From positions 12,053 to 76,052 of the forward strand of contig JADFZS010000004.1 of the NCBI GenBank assembly GCA_015232405.1: a DNA stretch of 64,000 nucleotides, written 5' to 3'. This DNA comes from Magnetococcales bacterium. GTDB lineage: Bacteria > Pseudomonadota > Magnetococcia > Magnetococcales > JADFYX01. A program made the translations under genes and the position numbers. This document shows, one piece after another, positions 19,138-49,770 of the stretch. How positions within the stretch are numbered: position 1 is the first letter of the stretch; each line of letters starts with the position of its first letter. A model generated the notes under the pieces. It saw only the letters and a list, made by a program, of their open reading frames with translations. It made no database searches and was not told where the DNA came from.

Positions 19138-21441
19138 ATGATTAGTAAACATCTTGAGACATCACTTAACAAAGCTATAAGAAACGCCCAGTTGCGCGGA
19201 CAGCAGTATGCCACAGTTGAACATCTGCTTTTGGCTTTGACTGAAAATCCAGAGGTTACAGGTCTTCTACTCACCTGTGGCTGTGATCTCACCAAATTAT
19301 CCTCGGATCTCGACAACCATCTAACCGCCCATGTTCCTGTGGCACGTGAAGATGACCCTATCCAGGAGATAACCCCAACTGTTGGTTTCCAAAGGGTAAT
19401 TCAAAGAGCTGTCTTTCAAGTTCAATCCTCGGGGCGCACCATGGTAACAGGGGCATATGTTCTGGTTGCCATGTTTAGTGAAAAAGAGTCCCATGCGGTC
19501 CATTTTCTAGAAAATCAGGATATCAGCCGCTTGGATATTCAATCTGCCATCTCCCATGATTCAGAGGGGGCTGACTCGGGTGCTAACAGCCCCTCCGAGG
19601 AGCCTCTATCTCCTGGGGGAACAATTCCCAAGCCTGATGATAAGCAAAATCCACTGGAGCTTTACACGGTCAACTTAAATAGGGAAGTCAAAGAGGGTCG
19701 AATTGATCCATTGATAGGCCGCGAGGATGAGATTGTCAGAACATTTCAGATTCTCTGTCGCAGGAGAAAAAACAACCCTCTGTATGTAGGTGAGGCCGGG
19801 GTGGGCAAAACCCATCTGGCTGAAGGAATTGCCCTTAAGATTGTCGAGGGTAAAGTACCTAAAGTATTGGAGAATTGTGTGATTTTCGCCCTGGATCTCG
19901 GCTCTCTTTTAGCAGGAACAAAATTTAGAGGTGATTTTGAAGCGAGGCTCAAAGGGGTATTGAAGGCTTTAAAGGATCATCCTGATGCCATTTTGTTTAT
20001 AGATGAGATACACACCATTATTGGTGCTGGTTCCACAAGTGGCAGCACCATGGATGCTTCCAACCTACTAAAACCTCTGTTGGCAAATGGCGAACTACGC
20101 TGTATTGGCTCCACAACCTATGAGGAGTTTCGCAGTGTTTTTGAGAAAGATAGTGGTCTGGCACGAAGGTTTCAAAAAATTGATGTTCCAGAACCCTCTA
20201 TGGAAGAGACCATTGCTATTTTAAAGGGTTTGAAAGGTCGTTATGAGGAGCACCACGGTATCACCTACTCCCAGGACTCCATCCAGATAGCAGCAGAGCT
20301 ATCTGGTCGCCATATTCATGATCGCAAGCATCCTGATTCGGCTATTGATGTGCTGGATGAAGCAGGTGCTGCCTGTCAACTTGTGGTTGAGGAGGAGAGG
20401 CAAAAAGAGATTGGGGTAGAGAATATCGAGACTATTGTTTCACGAATGGCAAGAATACCTGCCCGTTCTGTCTCCCATGACGATAGGTTGATTTTAAAGG
20501 ATTTAGAGGCCAATCTAAAGCTATCTTTATTTGGTCAGGACCCTGCTTTAACTCAGGTTTGTACAGCGATTAAGTTGGCCCGTGCAGGTTTGGGCAACCC
20601 TGAAAAACCCATGGGCTGTTTTTTGATGACTGGTCCAACGGGTGTGGGCAAAACTGAGCTTGCAAGGCAGTTGGCAATTGAGTTGGGTGTGGAGTTGGTA
20701 CGGTTTGATATGAGTGAGTATATGGAGAGACACACAGTCTCTCGTCTTATAGGTGCTCCTCCGGGTTATGTTGGCTTTGATCAGGCAGGACTTTTGACAG
20801 AAGCGGTAACCAAAAATCCCCATGCCATATTGCTGCTTGATGAGATAGAAAAGGCTCATCCTGATATTTATAATATACTTTTACAGGTTATGGATCATGG
20901 TAAGCTGACAGATAATAATGGTCGTCAGGCTGATTTTCGCAATGTAATTCTTATTATGACCACAAACGCTGGCGCTCAGGATGTGGACCGCTCTTCGGTT
21001 GGTTTTACCACTCAAAACCATGTTGGTGATGAGATGAAGGAGATTAAGCGGCTATTTACTCCAGAGTTTCGCAACCGCTTGGATACCATCATTGCCTTTA
21101 AATCACTTGAGCCAGAGACTATTGTGAGGGTAGTTGATAAGTTTCTCTTGGTGTTGGAGGCTGATCTTGAGAAAAAAAATGTCACCCTTAATGTTAGTGC
21201 CAGTGCAAGAAACTGGTTGGCGGAGAACGGTTATGATCGTAGCAATGGTGCTCGGCCCATGGAGAGGTTGATTAAAAAAGAGATTCGCCAACCACTATCA
21301 GAGGAGCTTCTTTTTGGTAATTTGACCGAAGGTGGTTCAGTATCGTTACGGGCGGAAAAAGATAAACTTCACTTAAACTGCAAAAAGCCCACTGCACGCA
21401 AAAAGAGAAAGTCTGCCAAGAAGGTTCCTGTAACAGCTTAA
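19138..21441 (+). CDS. clpA: ATP-dependent Clp protease ATP-binding subunit ClpA
   Basis: Two AAA+ modules ([16 protein letters not shown]), [11 protein letters not shown]. Confidence 0.97.
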
Positions 21442-21606
21442 ACCTAGAAACGGCGGTTGGCAGTGCGTACATGGCGTAACATATTGGTTTAGCTGGTGTA
21501 ACAGAGCAAATCGAAGTCACCTTGTTGGTGATGAGACTTTGCTCTGTTATGCCAGATGAATCAATAGGTTGCGTCAGGTGCGTGCTGACAACTGCTGTTT
21601 CTAGGT
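21442..21606. mobile_element. 165-bp palindromic MITE, copy 1 (ACCTAGAAAC...GTTTCTAGGT) with TAA target duplication
   Basis: Flanked by TAA at 21439-41 (the clpA stop) and 21607-09. A near-identical inverted copy lies at 48406-48573. Confidence 0.88.
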
Positions 21607-21645
21607 TAAATATAATGTAGCTACATCAAAGAATGGACAGTTAAT

Positions 21646-22624: not shown

Positions 22625-22692
22625 CCTAGTTAACTTTTTGTTTATATGGTAAATTCAAACCAAATCTGGACAAAAAAATATTTTTATTATTA

Positions 22693-22822
22693 GGGGTGCA
22701 GGGGGATTATCTCCCTGCTGGGTTTGGGCGAAGCCCAAGGTTTTGCCTTTGTTTTTAAGTCTTTACATTCAAAAGTGTGGGGGTTTGGGGCCTGCAAGGC
22801 CTCCCAAGGTTTTGCTTTTGAC
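22693..22822 (+). repeat. REP-like half element related to the arms of the cruciform elements
   Basis: GGGGTGCAGGGGGATTATCTCCCTGC-TGGGTTTGGGCGAAGCCCAAGGTTTTG, then a second degenerate GGGTTTGGG...CCCAAGGTTTTG. Confidence 0.75.
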
Positions 22823-22845
22823 TGTATATTTTTGATTTAAAATCA

Positions 22846-23322
22846 CTATACATCGATATTTTTCAGCTCTTCATCAATTCGTGCCTGCATTTTTTTATCG
22901 GTATCGGTAGTTGGTGTTGCAGTTTTAATACTGTTTTTCTTCCATTTTTTAAATGCTGTTATCAGGGCAAGCGCACCTATGATCAGTCCGAAAGCGGGAC
23001 CAAACCAGAGCAGCATGTTCATACCGGACTTTGTAGGTTTGAGGTATATGTAGTCACCGTAGCGTTGGAAGAAATAGTCTCTTATGGAGGCTTCGCTTTC
23101 TCCGGCGTTTACTTTATCTCTGATGACCTCAAGCATATCTTTGGCGAGGTCTGAGTTAGACTCATAGATAGACTGGTTTTGGCAAACGGCACAGCGGAGA
23201 TCTTTAGCGATGGTTCTTACGAGAGCTTCGCTGGGATCTTCATTTTTGGTTGTTGCAGATAGTGGCGATGCTGTTAAAAACAGTATTGCAAACAGTATTA
23301 TAAGATTTAGATATCGTCTCAT
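22846..23322 (-). CDS. ccmH: Cytochrome c biogenesis protein CcmH
   Basis: LRCAVCQNQSI, RYGDYI. Start taken at MRRYL. Confidence 0.93.
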   Translation of the reverse strand: MRRYLNLIILFAILFLTASPLSATTKNEDPSEALVRTIAKDLRCAVCQNQSIYESNSDLAKDMLEVIRDKVNAGESEASIRDYFFQRYGDYIYLKPTKSGMNMLLWFGPAFGLIIGALALITAFKKWKKNSIKTATPTTDTDKKMQARIDEELKNIDV

Positions 23323-23323
23323 A

Positions 23324-23875
23324 TCATGTTTTCCCACCTGAGTTTGTTCCTTGGATTTGTGGCAGAGCGATTTTTTCAAACCAGCCGAAGTATAGGGGTC
23401 CGGTATGTTTTAATCTTATCATACCTGTGGGGTCCACAAGGTAAGATTCTGGTGCACCGTATACCCCCCAATCTATTGCTATTTTTTGTTTAGGGTCAAA
23501 GGCGTGTTTATAGCCGGGGTCGCCGTGACGTTGCAGAAATCTATTGGCTCCTTCTCTGGTATCGCGAAAGTCCACACCAATTATCAGAAAATCATCTCGT
23601 TTATCGGCGATTCTAGCTAGTTCCAGCAGATATGGATGTTCGGCAACACAGCTGATGCACCAGGAGCCCCAGAAGTTTACTAGCACCCATTTTCCTTTAT
23701 AGTCAGAAAGGGAGATATTACCGTTACCTTTAAGGGTAGGTGCGGTAAAATCTGATGCTGGTTTATTTACCAGTGGCGAGGGTATATCTCGGGGATCATT
23801 GCCCAAACCTCCGGCAAACAGGGCCATGATGACAACGAGAGATAGTAGCAGGATAATTTTCCAGGAATTTTTCAT
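23324..23875 (-). CDS. ccmG: Thiol:disulfide interchange protein CcmG/DsbE
   Basis: NFWGSWCISC, WGVYGAPESYL. Confidence 0.95.
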   Translation of the reverse strand: MKNSWKIILLLSLVVIMALFAGGLGNDPRDIPSPLVNKPASDFTAPTLKGNGNISLSDYKGKWVLVNFWGSWCISCVAEHPYLLELARIADKRDDFLIIGVDFRDTREGANRFLQRHGDPGYKHAFDPKQKIAIDWGVYGAPESYLVDPTGMIRLKHTGPLYFGWFEKIALPQIQGTNSGGKT

Positions 23876-23924
23876 GATATCCTAATTAAAATAACAAAAT
23901 AAAATAACAAAAAATAAAACTAAT

Positions 23925-24336
23925 GGGGGTCCAGGGGAATCATTTCCCTGGTGGGTTTGGGCGAAGCCCAAGGTTCTGTCTTTGCTTTAAGGCCGAATTT
24001 ACAAAAGGCGTTTTTTTGCCTTTGCTTTTAAAAAAACGTCTCGGCCCGTATCTTAATTTATAAGTATATAATCCCAGTCTTTTTTGGGATTATATACTTA
24101 TAAATGCTATTTACCAATCACGGGTTGGATTAAATCCGACCGTTGGTAGGTAAAGGATGCTAGCAAAGGTAGAAAACCCCCAAAAGCTGGGTTTTCTACC
24201 TTTGCTAGCGAATATACTAGCCGGGGGCTTTTTTTAAAAGGCACAAAAAAAGCCCTTTATAACTCCGGCTTTACAGCAACAGCAAAACCTTGGGCCTTGC
24301 CCAAACCCACCAGGGAAATGATTCCCCTGGACCCCC
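23925..24336. repeat. 412-bp cruciform palindromic element (REPIN/MITE-like), copy 1
   Basis: ~125-bp imperfect terminal inverted repeats (first 38 bp perfect), three internal hairpins, ACTAAT on both sides. Second copy at 34122-34528. Confidence 0.9.
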
Positions 24337-24360
24337 ACTAATACAGCCTTTTTTATATGC

Positions 24361-34101: not shown

Positions 34102-34121
34102 AAAAATAGCTTTTAACTAGT

Positions 34122-34528
34122 GGGGGTCCAGGGGAATCATTTCCCTGGTGGGTTTGGGCGAAGCCCAAGGTTTTGTAGTTGCTGTAAAGCCGAATATTAA
34201 AAGTCGTTTTTTTGCCTTTGCTTTTCAAAAAACGTCTCGGCTAGTCTATTAACCCCCAAAGCAATAAAACCCCGTCTTTTTGGGGTTTTATTGCTTTGGG
34301 GGTGTCCTTTACTCTCCATTGGTGGGAGTTAATTTAATCCCTTGCTAGGTATAGGACACATATCAAGAGACAAAAACCAAAAGGACGGTTTTTGTCTCTT
34401 AATATGCTAATAGATTAGCCGGGAGCTTTTTTTGAAAAGCACAAAAAAAGCTCTTTTAAATTCCGGCTTTACAGCAAAACCTTGGGCTTTGCCCAAACCC
34501 ACCAGGGAAATGATTTCCCTGGACCCTC
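34122..34528. repeat. 407-bp cruciform palindromic element (REPIN/MITE-like), copy 2
   Basis: Same arms as 23925-24336, different internal hairpin stems, flanked by ACTAGT and ACTAAT. Confidence 0.9.
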
Positions 34529-34567
34529 ACTAATGGGAGCATACCCACTAGTATCGGTATATTTATT

Positions 34568-47255: not shown

Positions 47256-48101
47256 TTAAACCTGATGCCCATCAATTTTGTTTAAAATTTGTTTAATTGC
47301 GGGATAGCCAATTGCGTCATAGTAGTCTACCAGTCCAGCATTGCACTTCATAATAACATAGAAAATCATTTTATTATGTTTATTCCAACTATAAAACTCA
47401 GCTAAACTGGAAGCTCTCTCTATTCTGTGGGTATTTGTCTTACCTACAGCAAAAACCTGATCCAGATAATCTTGGCTACAGGTAAGATATCCTTGGGTAA
47501 AATAGTTAAACAATGTTTTAAAATGTTCGGGGTCGGTTGTATAATCCTCCATTTTGAATGTCTCTGCTTTGGAGGCCAAGATAGAGGCTTCAAAATGCAT
47601 GGCGTGGCCGACATTCCAGGTAAACAGTAGCTCCATATCTGTTGTAGATATCTGTTCATTTTCAGCAATATTTGGAAAACAGTTTAGAGATACCAAATAC
47701 TGTATCATATCAGCATTAACTCTGCTGAACTGGTCCAACATTATTTTATAGTTATGGTGGTTTTGTGGTTTTTGGGATTCAGATAGATGGTGGTTGAACA
47801 GGGAAGATATCCTCTGTATGGGATCTCTTGTTAAAAATCCAAAGGAGCCTCCCAAATCACTAATGGGTTTTTCCATATGGCTGCCGTGATAACCATGGAT
47901 ACCACCCACCCATAGACCGTTTTTCGCTCTGGCTTTCAGCCCTTTAGCAAAATCTAAACAGGTTAGTTCTTCAGTATTTCCACTATCTTCAAAATGCCTG
48001 GTCCCATGATAACATTGTAAATCTTCATGTATACTCAGAACTTTAGCCAACCAACTTGTGGCTGTTCCTCCCCAGGAAGAGGCATAAAAAATGTTTCCCA
48101 T
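47256..48101 (-). CDS. Hypothetical protein, possibly sulfotransferase-like fold
   Basis: N-terminal GGTATSWLAKVLSIH and a later LTRDP motif resemble degenerate PAPS-binding motifs. Confidence 0.5.
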   Translation of the reverse strand: MGNIFYASSWGGTATSWLAKVLSIHEDLQCYHGTRHFEDSGNTEELTCLDFAKGLKARAKNGLWVGGIHGYHGSHMEKPISDLGGSFGFLTRDPIQRISSLFNHHLSESQKPQNHHNYKIMLDQFSRVNADMIQYLVSLNCFPNIAENEQISTTDMELLFTWNVGHAMHFEASILASKAETFKMEDYTTDPEHFKTLFNYFTQGYLTCSQDYLDQVFAVGKTNTHRIERASSLAEFYSWNKHNKMIFYVIMKCNAGLVDYYDAIGYPAIKQILNKIDGHQV

Positions 48102-48377
48102 ATCACCCTGTAATGTTTTTTTTCCATATTAAAAAAAGATTATAATCCCATGACTTAGTTTCATACTATATGCTTATAACCCACTTAGCAAAAATGTATT
48201 TGGTATTCAGTAGATATGTAAAAGAGGTTTGTATAACCTTAAATTTTATTTACAAACGATAATAAGCCTTAAAAATAAATGCGTGTTTTTATTCCCATTT
48301 ATATGAAAGTGGACTTTATTTTATAATAAATGCAGGATGGTTGTTTATCAGGATGTTGAATTTATGAAACTGTTGGT

Positions 48378-49676
48378 GTGGGAGTGAGCCAATTGAATGC
48401 CATAAACCTAGAAACAGCAGTTGTCAGCACGCACCTGACGCAACCTATTGATTCATCTGGCATAACAGATCAAAGTCTCATCACCAATAATAAGGTGACT
48501 TCGATTTGCTCTGTTACACCAGCTAAACCAATATGTTACGCCATGCACGCACCGCCAACCGCCGTTTCTAGGTTAAAAGTTTTCATCATTTTGTTTTTAT
48601 TGTTAATATTCTACTCTGTTGGGGTTGTTAATGCTGCTGTAAACAAACATCGTATTATGATAGTCAGCAGTTATCACAAGAGCTATCTGTGGTCTCAGGA
48701 CACCAACAAGGGTGTATGTGCTGCTCTGTTGGACTTTGCATATCTGGACAGTTTGCAGCAAGCAGAGATTTTGACAAACAATAATTTTGTTGAAAGCTCC
48801 CGGGCAATTATCAAAAAATTGTGGATGGATACCAAACGCAAAAACTCTCGCCATGAGTTGGCAATAACCTCAGCAAGGATTGTTAAAGCGATAGAGCTTT
48901 TTAAACCAGATATATTACTGCTAGGTGATGATAACGCCACAAATTATATAGGAAATTATTATTACAACACAAGCTTACCCATTGTTTTTTGGGGCATGAA
49001 CGGAACCCCTCCGAAATATGGCCTTATAGATTCTGTAGCAACACCTGGACACAACATAACAGGGGTATATCAAGCAGGATATCTAAGGGAAGGGGTTGAG
49101 TTTCTTGTAAAACTGTTGCCACACATTAAGACTATGGCTATTCTTTCGGACAAATCCCCAACTGGACGCTCAAAAACAAAAATTCTGCATAAATTGGCCC
49201 AGGATGGAAAACTACCAGTTAGATTGGTTGGTACCGTGGGAACAAACAACCTTACAAGATGGCAAGTCAGGGCTTTGGAGTTGGCAAGTAAAGCCGATGC
49301 TTTTTTTGTACTTAATCACAACACAATAAAGGATGAAATGGGCCGCTCTGTACCACAGTTGCAGTTAGGTGCGTGGTATCTACGTAATATTAATAAACCA
49401 GATATCGGCCATGAAAAGCAGTTTGTTGAAGAGGGTCTACTGGGTGCTGTTGATGATTCTGGCTATAAGCAGGGATATGAAGCTGTCCGTATCGCCAATA
49501 GAATAATTGGCAAAGGGGCAAATCCTGCTTTTATATCATCCTACGCCCCATCAAGGGGTAAATTTATTGTTAATCTGCAACGGGCAAAAATGTTGGGGTT
49601 AGACCATTTAATTAAAGGCAACCCGATAGTTGAGGAAACAATTGAAAGAGCCTTGGCTCTGGATACATACCCATGA
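48378..49676 (+). CDS. ABC-type substrate-binding protein carrying an in-frame MITE in its signal peptide
   Basis: LLLGDDNA, PIVFWG, NITGV. N-terminus contains 57 MITE-encoded residues. Confidence 0.8.
   Translation: MGVSQLNAINLETAVVSTHLTQPIDSSGITDQSLITNNKVTSICSVTPAKPICYAMHAPPTAVSRLKVFIILFLLLIFYSVGVVNAAVNKHRIMIVSSYHKSYLWSQDTNKGVCAALLDFAYLDSLQQAEILTNNNFVESSRAIIKKLWMDTKRKNSRHELAITSARIVKAIELFKPDILLLGDDNATNYIGNYYYNTSLPIVFWGMNGTPPKYGLIDSVATPGHNITGVYQAGYLREGVEFLVKLLPHIKTMAILSDKSPTGRSKTKILHKLAQDGKLPVRLVGTVGTNNLTRWQVRALELASKADAFFVLNHNTIKDEMGRSVPQLQLGAWYLRNINKPDIGHEKQFVEEGLLGAVDDSGYKQGYEAVRIANRIIGKGANPAFISSYAPSRGKFIVNLQRAKMLGLDHLIKGNPIVEETIERALALDTYP
48406..48573. mobile_element. 168-bp palindromic MITE, copy 2 (inverted relative to copy 1) with TAA target duplication
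   Basis: TAA at 48403-05 and 48574-76. Differs from copy 1 by 4 substitutions plus a 3-nt indel. Confidence 0.9.
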
Positions 49677-49770
49677 GAACTTATTGAAATATTTGACTGA
49701 ATGTAGTAAAAGATCTACTTGACTTGAGAAAAGCAATCATTATCACTTAGAAGTTTATTCAGGATAACTA

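What the first reader, a model, noticed from the sequence alone, without database searches (positions are those of the whole stretch)
48378..48640. Palindromic MITE inserted in-frame into a signal peptide (RPE-like coding repeat)
Seen: the 168-bp element plus its 3-bp TAA duplication totals 171 nt and adds 57 stop-free codons (NLETAVVSTH...PPTAVSRL). Removing it restores a normal Sec signal, MSQLNAI|KVFIILFLLLIFYSVGVVNA. The intergenic copy is 165 bp, also a multiple of 3 and open in the same frame, and the only indel between copies is 3 nt. An internal ATG (48543, MHAPPTAVSRLKVFIILF...) could instead supply a new n-region, although it lacks a clear SD. Established: Rickettsia palindromic elements insert in-frame into proteins. 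Inference: this may be an analogous peptide-donating repeat family.
Basis: partly seen in the sequence, partly recalled or inferred. Interest (0 to 1): 0.75.

Follow-up and report, generated by a model that had tools for sequence, protein, structure and literature searches.

The report
Hairpin transposon inside a signal peptide
A small, recently inserted mobile DNA hairpin sits in frame inside the export signal of a periplasmic binding-protein gene; this kind of tolerated in-frame insertion is already known from other bacteria, so it is a clear but fairly ordinary example.

Summary
A 166-bp MITE (48407-48572, CCTAG...CTAGG ends) with a 5-bp target duplication (ATAAA/TTAAA) adds 171 nt, or 57 stop-free codons. 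It lies between the start region and the hydrophobic core of the signal peptide of a PF04392 binding protein. None of 11 aligned homologues has these residues.

The element belongs to a genus-wide family: 59 full copies here, 20 mini derivatives of 48 bp, and copies in 4 of 4 same-genus genomes.

One frame is open in 38 of 58 copies here and in 32 of 60 copies from relatives. In-frame copies occur in other real proteins: NIR_SIR reductase, GluQRS-like synthetase, NIT sensor, REC-Hpt, Hpre_diP_synt_I. One sits in the signal peptide of a ModA-like protein.

I found no sign that the peptide is selected:
- Stop-creating variants: 6 seen, 6.9 expected.
- Variation is even across codon positions (p=0.74).
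- About 97% of copies are not read through by a real gene.
- This copy differs from its subfamily consensus by only two substitutions and one 3-nt insertion.

Best reading: a young insertion that survived because it is in frame, and a new member of a known kind. How the gene is now translated and exported is unresolved.

The parts
48298..48327 (+). Promoter-like site upstream of the gene (TTTATA, 18 nt, TATAAT); candidate native promoter
   Evidence: Consensus scan, 10 of 12 matches. The region gave 6 sites against 2.8 +/- 1.8 in shuffles, so this is weak evidence.
48380..48384 (+). Shine-Dalgarno-like GGGAG, 8 nt before the TTG at 48393
   Evidence: Read from the sequence; it lies in an unpaired loop in the RNA fold. 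Function is inferred.
48393..48395 (+). Most likely ancestral start codon (TTG). In-frame alternatives are GTG at 48378 and GTG at 48384; the protein on record (430 aa) uses 48384.
   Evidence: These are the only in-frame start codons between the upstream stop and the insertion site. The 430-aa database protein is P0001. Homologues start 2-5 residues before the hydrophobic core.
48402..48406 (.). Left copy of the 5-bp target-site duplication (ATAAA)
   Evidence: 5-bp duplications are perfect in 72 of 99 copies, consensus WTNAW. Here 4 of 5 bases match the right copy.
48407..48572 (+). MITE copy, 166 bp, CCTAG...CTAGG ends, long imperfect hairpin. It is read in its one stop-free frame as 55 of the 57 inserted codons.
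   Evidence: 59 full copies in the genome. Its arms are inverted repeats. The RNA hairpin is -56.6 kcal/mol, z = -8.0. Stops per frame are 0, 6, 5, 2, 7, 3. It differs from the subfamily consensus by 2 substitutions plus the AAT.
48486..48491 (+). AATAAT at the hairpin tip, made by a 3-nt AAT insertion unique to this copy. It keeps the frame and also makes a -10-like hexamer, 18 nt after the -35-like ATAACA at 48462-48467.
   Evidence: Alignment of 58 copies, consensus comparison, promoter scan with 9 of 12 matches. Promoter function is speculative.
48543..48545 (+). In-frame ATG inside the 3' arm of the element. Starting here gives MHAPPTAVSRLK plus the hydrophobic core, a conventional 31-residue signal peptide.
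   Evidence: Read from the sequence. There is no SD-like motif upstream, and the codon lies in the hairpin stem in the fold.
48573..48577 (.). Right copy of the target-site duplication (TTAAA)
48576..48635 (+). The rest of the ancestral signal peptide: Lys, the hydrophobic core VFIILFLLLIFYSVGVV, then ..VNA before the likely cleavage site
   Evidence: It aligns with the signal peptides of 11 homologues. The model has a helix at residues 61-78. The cleavage site is read by eye; no signal-peptide predictor was available.
48636..49676 (+). Mature periplasmic binding protein (PF04392 ABC_sub_bind), intact
   Evidence: Pfam E = 2.2e-18. It is 59-72% identical to the aligned homologues, without stops or frameshifts. 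This part of the model is confident.
21438..21610 (-). Second copy of the family in the window: element 21443-21605, 163 bp, with TTAAA on both sides (+ strand). No long ORF reads through it.

Best explanation
A young copy of a genus-wide hairpin MITE family landed in the Lys-codon-rich start of the signal peptide of a PF04392 periplasmic binding-protein gene. The family is 163 bp as a rule, has CCTAG ends and makes a 5-bp WTNAW target duplication. No transposase partner is assembled. The insertion lies after about codon 4, counting from the TTG at 48393.

It landed in the only orientation and phase in which the element has no stop. Element plus duplication is a multiple of three (171 nt), so the reading frame runs on. 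The inserted 57 residues lie in the part of the pre-protein that is normally cut off, so the mature protein is unchanged.

The open frame is a passive property of the family's founder sequence. It persists because few single changes in that frame create a stop. In-frame copies in genes are survivors of selection on the host genes, not evidence of a function for the peptide.

How the gene is now expressed is inferred, not shown. The likeliest route is translation from the old SD and start through the element, giving a roughly 84-residue signal peptide with a long disordered front. The alternative is a start at the internal ATG at 48543, which gives a conventional signal peptide.
For: MITE identity:
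- 59 full copies, 28 half copies at contig ends and 20 mini derivatives of 48 bp.
- Perfect 5-bp duplications in 72 of 99 copies.
- A hairpin with z = -8.0.
- Copies at 73-85% identity in 4 of 4 same-genus genomes.

Insertion in the coding sequence:
- 11 of 11 aligned homologues (59-72% identity, 367-375 aa) lack the 57 residues and begin 2-5 residues before the hydrophobic core.
- No start codon lies between the element and the core.

Youth: 2 substitutions plus one 3-nt insertion from the subfamily consensus.

Survivorship rather than selection on the peptide:
- 2 of 59 copies here are read through by long ORFs.
- The other copies near 5' ends lie upstream of the real ATG.
- In relatives, 2 of 60 are in frame in real genes and 0 split a gene.
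- The 48-bp minis, which would shift the frame, are in no long ORF: 0 of 20.
- Stop-creating variants in the open frame: 6 observed against 6.9 expected. Only 12 of 486 possible single changes create a stop there, against 16-25 in the other frames.
- Codon positions vary equally, p = 0.74.
- The frame carries stops in 14 of 18 copies of the oldest subfamilies here.
- An open frame arises in 14-18% of composition-matched simulations.

Parallel case: a ModA-like binding protein (P0181) carries the same peptide directly before the Lys and hydrophobic core of its signal peptide. Its orthologues in three same-genus genomes begin MKH.../MRY... with no insert.

The inserted residues 1-55 have pLDDT below 50 and no predicted secondary structure. 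This is weak evidence, because those alignment columns hold only this sequence.
Against: - No expression data: no sequencing run could be listed, and no signal-peptide predictor was available. That the gene still yields exported protein is inference.
- The insertion is so young that the intact downstream ORF says little about tolerance.
- The open frame is far commoner than any other: 70 of 118 copies against at most 4 of 118. Element plus duplication is a multiple of three in 52 of 58 copies. These could reflect selection at the level of the element, which my variant test cannot exclude. That test looks at drift among copies, not at the choice of founder sequences.
- The only indel in this copy is 3 nt. 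That is what selection for read-through would give, at 1 in 3 by chance.
- No same-genus orthologue of this gene was found, so no true empty site was seen for this locus.
Confidence: 0.7

Rival explanations
1. The family is an RPE-like coding-competent repeat. Its founder sequences have been selected, at the level of the element, to be translatable: a stop-free frame that starts at the first base of the target duplication, a total length that is a multiple of three, and codons that rarely mutate to stops. Copies can then settle inside genes, even at start codons, and donate a tolerated disordered peptide.
For: - The same frame is open in 38 of 58 copies here and 32 of 60 in four related genomes. 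Every other frame is open in at most 4 of 118.
- 52 of 58 copies are exactly 163 bp, 168 nt with the duplication.
- Only 12 of 486 single changes create a stop in that frame, against 16-25 in the others.
- In-frame copies lie in at least seven further real proteins: NIR_SIR, tRNA-synt_1c (GluQRS-like), NIT, REC-Hpt, Hpre_diP_synt_I, a CHASE5 sensor N-terminus and ModA-like.
- Two independent insertions lie at the very start of signal peptides.
Against: - Stop-creating variants are not depleted (6 against 6.9 expected) and codon positions vary equally.
- 14 of 18 copies of the older subfamilies here carry stops in that frame.
- Only about 3% of copies lie in frame in genes, against nearly half for RPEs (review PMC10969869, passages read).
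- An open frame arises by chance in 14-18% of simulations, about 5% together with the length condition.
- The protein-database hits were found with the peptide itself, so they can only show the open frame.
Confidence: 0.15
2. The insertion has in effect crippled the gene. A stable hairpin 12 nt after the start codon and a roughly 66-residue front on the signal peptide block translation or export. The ORF looks intact only because too little time has passed for it to decay.
For: - The copy is only 2 substitutions and one indel from its consensus.
- The hairpin is -56.6 kcal/mol.
- None of 11 aligned homologues has a long front region.
- The internal ATG lacks an SD and lies in the stem.
Against: - The one indel in the copy keeps the frame.
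- No stop has arisen in the frame.
- An independent ModA-like gene carries the same arrangement at 70% peptide identity, an insertion from another subfamily.
- Elongating ribosomes open hairpins (established knowledge).
- The SD and start lie outside the stem.
Confidence: 0.25
3. Rescue from within the element. The unique AAT insertion turned AATAAG into a -10-like AATAAT, 18 nt after a -35-like ATAACA. Transcripts would then start in the 3' arm, form no hairpin and be translated from the ATG at 48543, giving a conventional 31-residue signal peptide.
For: - The promoter scan lists this site, 9 of 12 matches.
- The AAT is absent from the other 57 copies here and from 60 in relatives.
- The ATG is conserved in the subfamily and is followed by Arg/Lys and the hydrophobic core.
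Against: - Consensus matches are weak evidence: 6 sites against 2.8 +/- 1.8 in shuffles.
- There is no SD before the ATG.
- A 3-nt slip in AAT-AAG is an ordinary mutation.
- The promoter rules of this uncultured lineage are unknown.
Confidence: 0.1
4. Assembly artefact: two different loci were joined through a shared repeat in this 335-contig draft genome.
For: 28 half copies end contigs, so the repeat does trouble the assembler.
Against: - The flanking 5-mers match at 4 of 5 positions.
- The left flank supplies exactly an SD, a start and 4-9 codons in frame with the right flank.
- The copy has a private 3-nt insertion, so it is not a collapsed consensus.
Confidence: 0.04

Closest known systems
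Rickettsia palindromic elements (RPE-1 and related; Ogata et al. 2000 and 2002, as summarised in the review PMC10969869, passages read)
   Same: Both are short palindromic dispersed repeats with one stop-free frame. Both are found in frame inside unrelated genes, where the host protein stays recognisable on both sides.
   Different: - No sequence or peptide similarity: no NCBIfam or Pfam hit.
- A different host lineage. Names attached to homologues point to Magnetococcales.
- Clear CCTAG ends and 5-bp duplications.
- Only about 3% of copies are in frame in genes, against nearly half for RPEs.
- No sign of constraint on the peptide.
Other bacterial MITEs that carry ORFs and make in-frame fusions: intragenic ERIC elements, pneumococcal BOX, QMITE1 of Coxiella, MITEb and MITEe of Anabaena PCC 7120 (listed in PMC10969869, passages read)
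   Same: The same phenomenon. The review says in-frame fusions by intragenic MITEs are not unusual.
   Different: This is a different family in a different lineage. The positions here (the front of a cleavable signal peptide, and in P0181 the start codon itself) were not mentioned in the passages I read. A five-term search for MITE, signal peptide, insertion, in-frame and periplasmic returned 3 papers. I opened one, which was not relevant, and judged the other two from the listing only.
Extended signal peptides of autotransporters
   Same: These are signal peptides of 50 residues or more, with an extra N-terminal stretch before a normal charged region and hydrophobic core, and they still direct Sec export.
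   Different: Those extensions are conserved and functional. This one is a recent transposon-derived stretch with no evidence of function.

Membership tests
Bacterial MITE | Short (under about 500 bp), with no transposase gene | tested here: met
   166 bp here; 163 bp in 52 of 58 copies. The only open frame matches no protein family.
Bacterial MITE | Terminal inverted repeats | tested here: met
   The arms are 78% complementary over 73 nt in the sister copy (pair I6). The whole element folds as a hairpin, z = -8.0.
Bacterial MITE | Target-site duplication of fixed length | tested here: met
   Perfect 5-bp duplications in 72 of 99 copies and one mismatch in 17 more; consensus WTNAW.
Bacterial MITE | Many dispersed copies at unrelated sites | tested here: met
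   59 full copies on many contigs; copies in 4 of 4 same-genus genomes.
Bacterial MITE | A parent insertion sequence with the same ends | tested here: inconclusive
   No pair of ends 0.2-6 kb apart encloses a transposase. Four internal half copies have no transposase nearby. The one long insert in a copy is a nested IS110-type element, not a parent. The draft assembly may have lost it.
Rickettsia palindromic elements (RPE) | Sequence or peptide similarity to an RPE family | tested here: not met
   The 57-residue peptide has no significant hit in NCBIfam (best E = 0.048, an unrelated model) or in Pfam. That RPE models are part of NCBIfam is recalled, not verified.
Rickettsia palindromic elements (RPE) | A large share of copies in frame inside genes (nearly half, per PMC10969869) | tested here: not met
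   2 of 58 copies here and 2 of 60 in relatives.
Rickettsia palindromic elements (RPE) | The host protein stays intact on both sides of the insert | tested here: met
   Pfam domains continue on both sides in the NIR_SIR protein, tRNA-synt_1c, Hpre_diP_synt_I and REC-Hpt. The mature PF04392 domain is intact here.
Sec-type cleavable signal peptide | Short charged front, hydrophobic core and small-residue cleavage motif at the N-terminus | not testable with these tools
   No signal-peptide predictor was available. By eye and by alignment with homologues, the core and VNA|A motif are present. The front is about 66 residues if read from the old start and 12 if read from the ATG at 48543.
PF04392 ABC_sub_bind | Match above Pfam's gathering score | tested here: met
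   67 bits against a cut-off of 25.9.

The most novel reading that the evidence does not exclude
The family has been shaped to be translatable. Its stop-free frame begins at the first base of the target duplication, and element plus duplication is a multiple of three. Its WTNAW target includes ATGAA and ATAAA, the Met-Lys and Lys-rich starts of exported proteins. It can therefore land on a start codon or a signal-peptide front, duplicate it, and leave the gene readable from the old ribosome-binding site. This would make it a MITE specialised for harmless entry at the 5' ends of genes. In this copy a private 3-nt insertion may also have created an internal promoter.
Probability: 0.15. Interest if true: 0.6.

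Novelty: new member of a known kind. Interest (0 to 1): 0.4.

Why it matters
- It is a well-documented case of how a mobile hairpin can enter a gene without breaking it. It also points to a class of position where such insertions should be cheapest: the cleaved pre-sequence of exported proteins. A second independent case in a ModA-like protein fits this.
- It matters for annotation. Of 57 database clusters that match the element's peptide, most are 46-133-residue proteins. Three of that size scanned with Pfam had no domain, so they are probably ORFs called on intergenic copies. N-termini of real genes are extended through the element.
- The family breaks this assembly at 28 contig ends.
- It is a natural starting point for testing how long a front region a Sec signal peptide tolerates.

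Tried and rejected
- Rfam scan of 48000-49000: only weak microRNA-hairpin look-alikes far below their gathering scores. Not a known RNA family.
- Sequencing runs for 48200-49700: none was listed, and no RNA holder was listed. Expression and population polymorphism could not be examined.
- Same-genus orthologue with an empty site: not found with this query in G001-G004. The best matches, E = 8e-7 to 8e-11, are paralogues, and G003 had none.
- Parent IS: not found.
- The top hit of the peptide search is a 5720-residue protein with 22 matching stretches. It is a repeat protein with 33-38% identity per 42-residue stretch; I read this as chance likeness multiplied by the repeats, not a relative.
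- DNA of the ModA-like protein P0181: the metagenome scan found no relative. Its duplication and start codon are therefore inferred from the protein and from orthologues.
- An apparently gene-splitting copy in a relative (L107) proved to lie upstream of a tyrosyl-tRNA synthetase start in a G+C-rich region with long chance frames.
I replaced it with a blastn search using a stretch taken by coordinates.
Full report
**What is there.** The window is part of contig C280 of a 5.86-Mb draft genome of 335 contigs and 42% G+C. Names attached to homologues place it among Magnetococcales-like bacteria. ORF 48378-49676 (+) is 432 codons long and is a PF04392 ABC_sub_bind periplasmic binding protein. A PBP_like_2 protein and a histidine-kinase-like ORF follow it. 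The protein on record for this ORF is 430 residues long, so its caller read through the repeat.

**The repeat.** A 31-nt probe from its end occurs twice in the window, against none expected. blastn of the 177-nt stretch gives 213 hits that collapse to 160 loci. Of these, 59 are full length. A profile search gives the same 59, plus 28 half copies at contig ends, 19 internal half copies and 8 short pieces. There are also 20 mini derivatives of 48 bp that keep only the two ends.

Aligning 58 copies with their flanks shows that the element starts CCTAG and ends CTAGG, and that 52 of 58 are exactly 163 bp. One copy lay too near a contig end to include. The five bases on either side are identical in 72 of 99 copies (58 from this genome, 41 from relatives) and differ at one base in 17 more. 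The consensus is W-T-N-A-W, with T and A invariant.

The total, 171 nt or 57 codons, stands. The element folds into one long hairpin of -56.6 kcal/mol, z = -8.0 against shuffles. No transposase-bearing parent was found. One copy on contig C277 carries a nested IS110-type element in its loop. Copies at 73-85% identity occur in all four same-genus genomes held, and weaker ones occur in three other genomes of the order.

**The insertion is in the coding sequence.** I aligned eleven homologues taken from the best 120 of 750 hits. They are 59-72% identical and 367-375 residues long. All lack the 57 residues and begin M-K/R-x only 2-5 residues before the hydrophobic core. Six orthologous loci from another family of the order show the same.

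In this gene no start codon lies between the element and the core. With the element and one duplication copy removed, the frame reads ...NAIKVFIILFLLLIFYSVGVVNA|AVNKHR. The in-frame starts are TTG at 48393 (8 nt after GGGAG) and GTG at 48384 and 48378. The mature part has no stop or frameshift. It is modelled with confidence, whereas residues 1-55 have pLDDT below 50 and no secondary structure. That last point is weak evidence, because those alignment columns hold only this sequence.

No same-genus orthologue was found, so a true empty site for this locus was not seen.

**Is the family a peptide donor?** Three kinds of evidence bear on this.

*Where the copies lie.*
- Of 59 full copies, long ORFs read through two. 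One is this copy. The other is on C111, inside a 749-residue NIR_SIR / NIR_SIR_ferr reductase, between the catalytic core and a C-terminal extension. Homologues of that reductase in four other genomes have open frames of 686-723 residues.
- After removal in silico, several other copies fall 5-31 codons inside long stop-to-stop frames. In each of these the real ATG lies downstream of the insertion point, so they sit in 5' leaders.
- One copy abuts the stop codon of a MutS-like gene. Another, in the opposite orientation, replaces the last 23 residues of an FGase gene.
- In a sample of 60 copies taken from four same-genus genomes by nucleotide similarity, two lie in frame in real genes. These are a tRNA-synt_1c (GluQRS-like) enzyme whose domain is split by the insert, and a NIT sensor. 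Three are read through only because they sit just upstream of a start. None splits a gene; the one suspect, L107, lies upstream of a tyrS start.
- None of the 20 frame-shifting mini copies lies in a long ORF.

*Which frame is open.* The frame that starts at the first base of the left duplication is open in 38 of 58 copies here and 32 of 60 in relatives. Every other frame is open in at most 4 of 118. For the commonest target, TTAAA, two of the six orientation-phase combinations cannot occur inside a gene, because the target itself would be a stop. The open combination is therefore one of four (reasoning from the sequence). All four internal intragenic copies are in that one combination. Selection on the host genes would leave exactly this.

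*Whether the peptide is constrained.*
- Among 93 copies of 163 bp there are 307 distinct variants. Six create a stop in the open frame, against 6.9 expected from the transition and transversion spectrum. The other five frames also match expectation.
- The frame is simply hard to break. Only 12 of 486 possible single changes create a stop, against 16-25 in the other frames.
- Variants are spread evenly over codon positions: 107/96/104, p = 0.74.
- In the oldest subfamilies here, 14 of 18 copies carry stops in this frame.
- With the ends fixed and composition-matched sequence between them, the frame is open in 14-18% of simulations.

**The peptide in databases.** Searching 1.84 billion representative proteins with the 57 residues gave 57 hits at E <= 0.001. 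Most are 46-133 residues long and are probably ORFs called on intergenic copies. I scanned eight with Pfam, and four are real proteins with the peptide in frame:
- a REC-Hpt protein, with the insert in the linker;
- an Hpre_diP_synt_I membrane protein, with the domain split;
- a NIT sensor;
- the N-terminus of a CHASE5 sensor.

The other 49 hits were not examined. The top hit, a 5720-residue repeat protein, I read as chance likeness.

A second search for longer proteins added a ModA-like binding protein, P0181. There the peptide lies directly before the Lys and hydrophobic core of the signal peptide. Its orthologues in three same-genus genomes, at 71-80% identity, match only from residue 57 on and begin MKH... 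or MRY.... This is an independent insertion at or next to the start codon of another exported binding protein. These database hits were found with the peptide itself, so they can only show the open frame and give no rate.

**Age and private changes.** This copy differs from the consensus of its 34-member subfamily by two substitutions, one of them a common variant, and by an AAT insertion at the hairpin tip. The two duplication copies also differ at one base. The insertion is therefore recent, and an intact downstream ORF says little about tolerance.

The AAT is the only change of its kind among 118 copies. It keeps the frame, at 1 in 3 by chance. It also turns AATAAG into a -10-like AATAAT, 18 nt after ATAACA. 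The consensus scan lists this as promoter-like, in a region with 6 sites against 2.8 +/- 1.8 in shuffles.

**How it most likely works.** Shown: the anatomy, the in-frame state, the absence of the insert in homologues, the youth of the copy and the lack of constraint on the peptide. Inferred: expression.

- The native promoter-like site (48298-48327), the SD and the TTG lie outside the hairpin. The simplest course is translation from the old start through the element. The inserted residues then lie in the part removed at VNA|A, so the mature protein is unchanged and only the efficiency of initiation and export is at stake.
- The in-frame ATG at 48543 would give a conventional signal peptide. 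It lacks an SD and is paired in the stem, unless transcripts start inside the element.
- A crippled gene cannot be excluded.

**Comparison with what is known.** A 2024 review (PMC10969869; I read the passages found with my search terms) states that in-frame fusions by intragenic MITEs are not unusual. It names ERIC, BOX, QMITE1 and Anabaena MITEb/MITEe, and gives RPEs as the extreme case, with nearly half of the copies inside ORFs.

This family works like those but is not an RPE. It has no peptide similarity to any Pfam or NCBIfam model, it comes from another lineage, and only about 3% of its copies are intragenic.

- No paper in the searched library holds both 'miniature inverted-repeat' and 'Magnetococc'.
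- Three papers hold MITE, signal peptide, insertion, in-frame and periplasmic together. I opened one, which does not describe such a case. I judged the other two from the listing only.
- These searches cover only the held open-access library.

**Verdict.** This is a new member of a known kind, of moderate interest, mainly for the recurrent landing at the 5' end of exported-protein genes and for its effect on annotation.

Noticed in passing
G000 contig C277:3115-4520 (outside the window): A copy of the same MITE is split at its hairpin tip by a 1.2-kb insert that encodes a 387-residue frame beginning MNKEIFVGIDVSK. By recall this looks like an IS110-family transposase (not scanned against Pfam). 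It is a nested insertion aimed at the loop of the hairpin.
   Followed up: partly
window 22674-24354 and 34115-34534: A second, unrelated family of inverted and direct repeats of about 60-120 nt (families D1, D2, D5 and pairs I2, I4, I7-I9), with 76-95% identity between copies about 10 kb apart. Not examined.
   Followed up: no
G000, 20 sites, e.g. C199:35052-35108: Mini derivatives of 48 bp that keep only the two ends of the MITE, each with its own 5-bp flanking repeat. The deletion lies between two copies of the short repeat GCACGCACC inside the element. None lies in a long ORF.
   Followed up: partly
G000, 28 contig ends: Contigs stop in the middle of the hairpin: half copies of 73-146 nt lie at contig ends. 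This MITE family is a main cause of the fragmentation of the assembly.
   Followed up: partly
G000 contig C99:6002-6173: A copy abuts the stop codon of an 896-codon MutS-like gene; its TTAAA target overlaps the TAA stop.
   Followed up: partly
G000 contig C283:34132-34301 (locus L037): A copy in the opposite orientation replaces the last 23 residues of an FGase (PF05013) gene with 13 element-encoded residues and a new stop.
   Followed up: partly
protein P0179 (metagenome, 103 aa): A called protein made of one MITE peptide, then a short signal-peptide-like stretch (MKISLFLFFLVAFPFIPAEA), then the start of a second MITE peptide. Two copies seem to flank a gene start.
   Followed up: no
proteins P0002-P0021: About twenty homologues of the binding protein are roughly 700 residues long, twice the usual length, with PF04392 as the only listed domain. 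They may be tandem or fused forms. Not examined.
   Followed up: no
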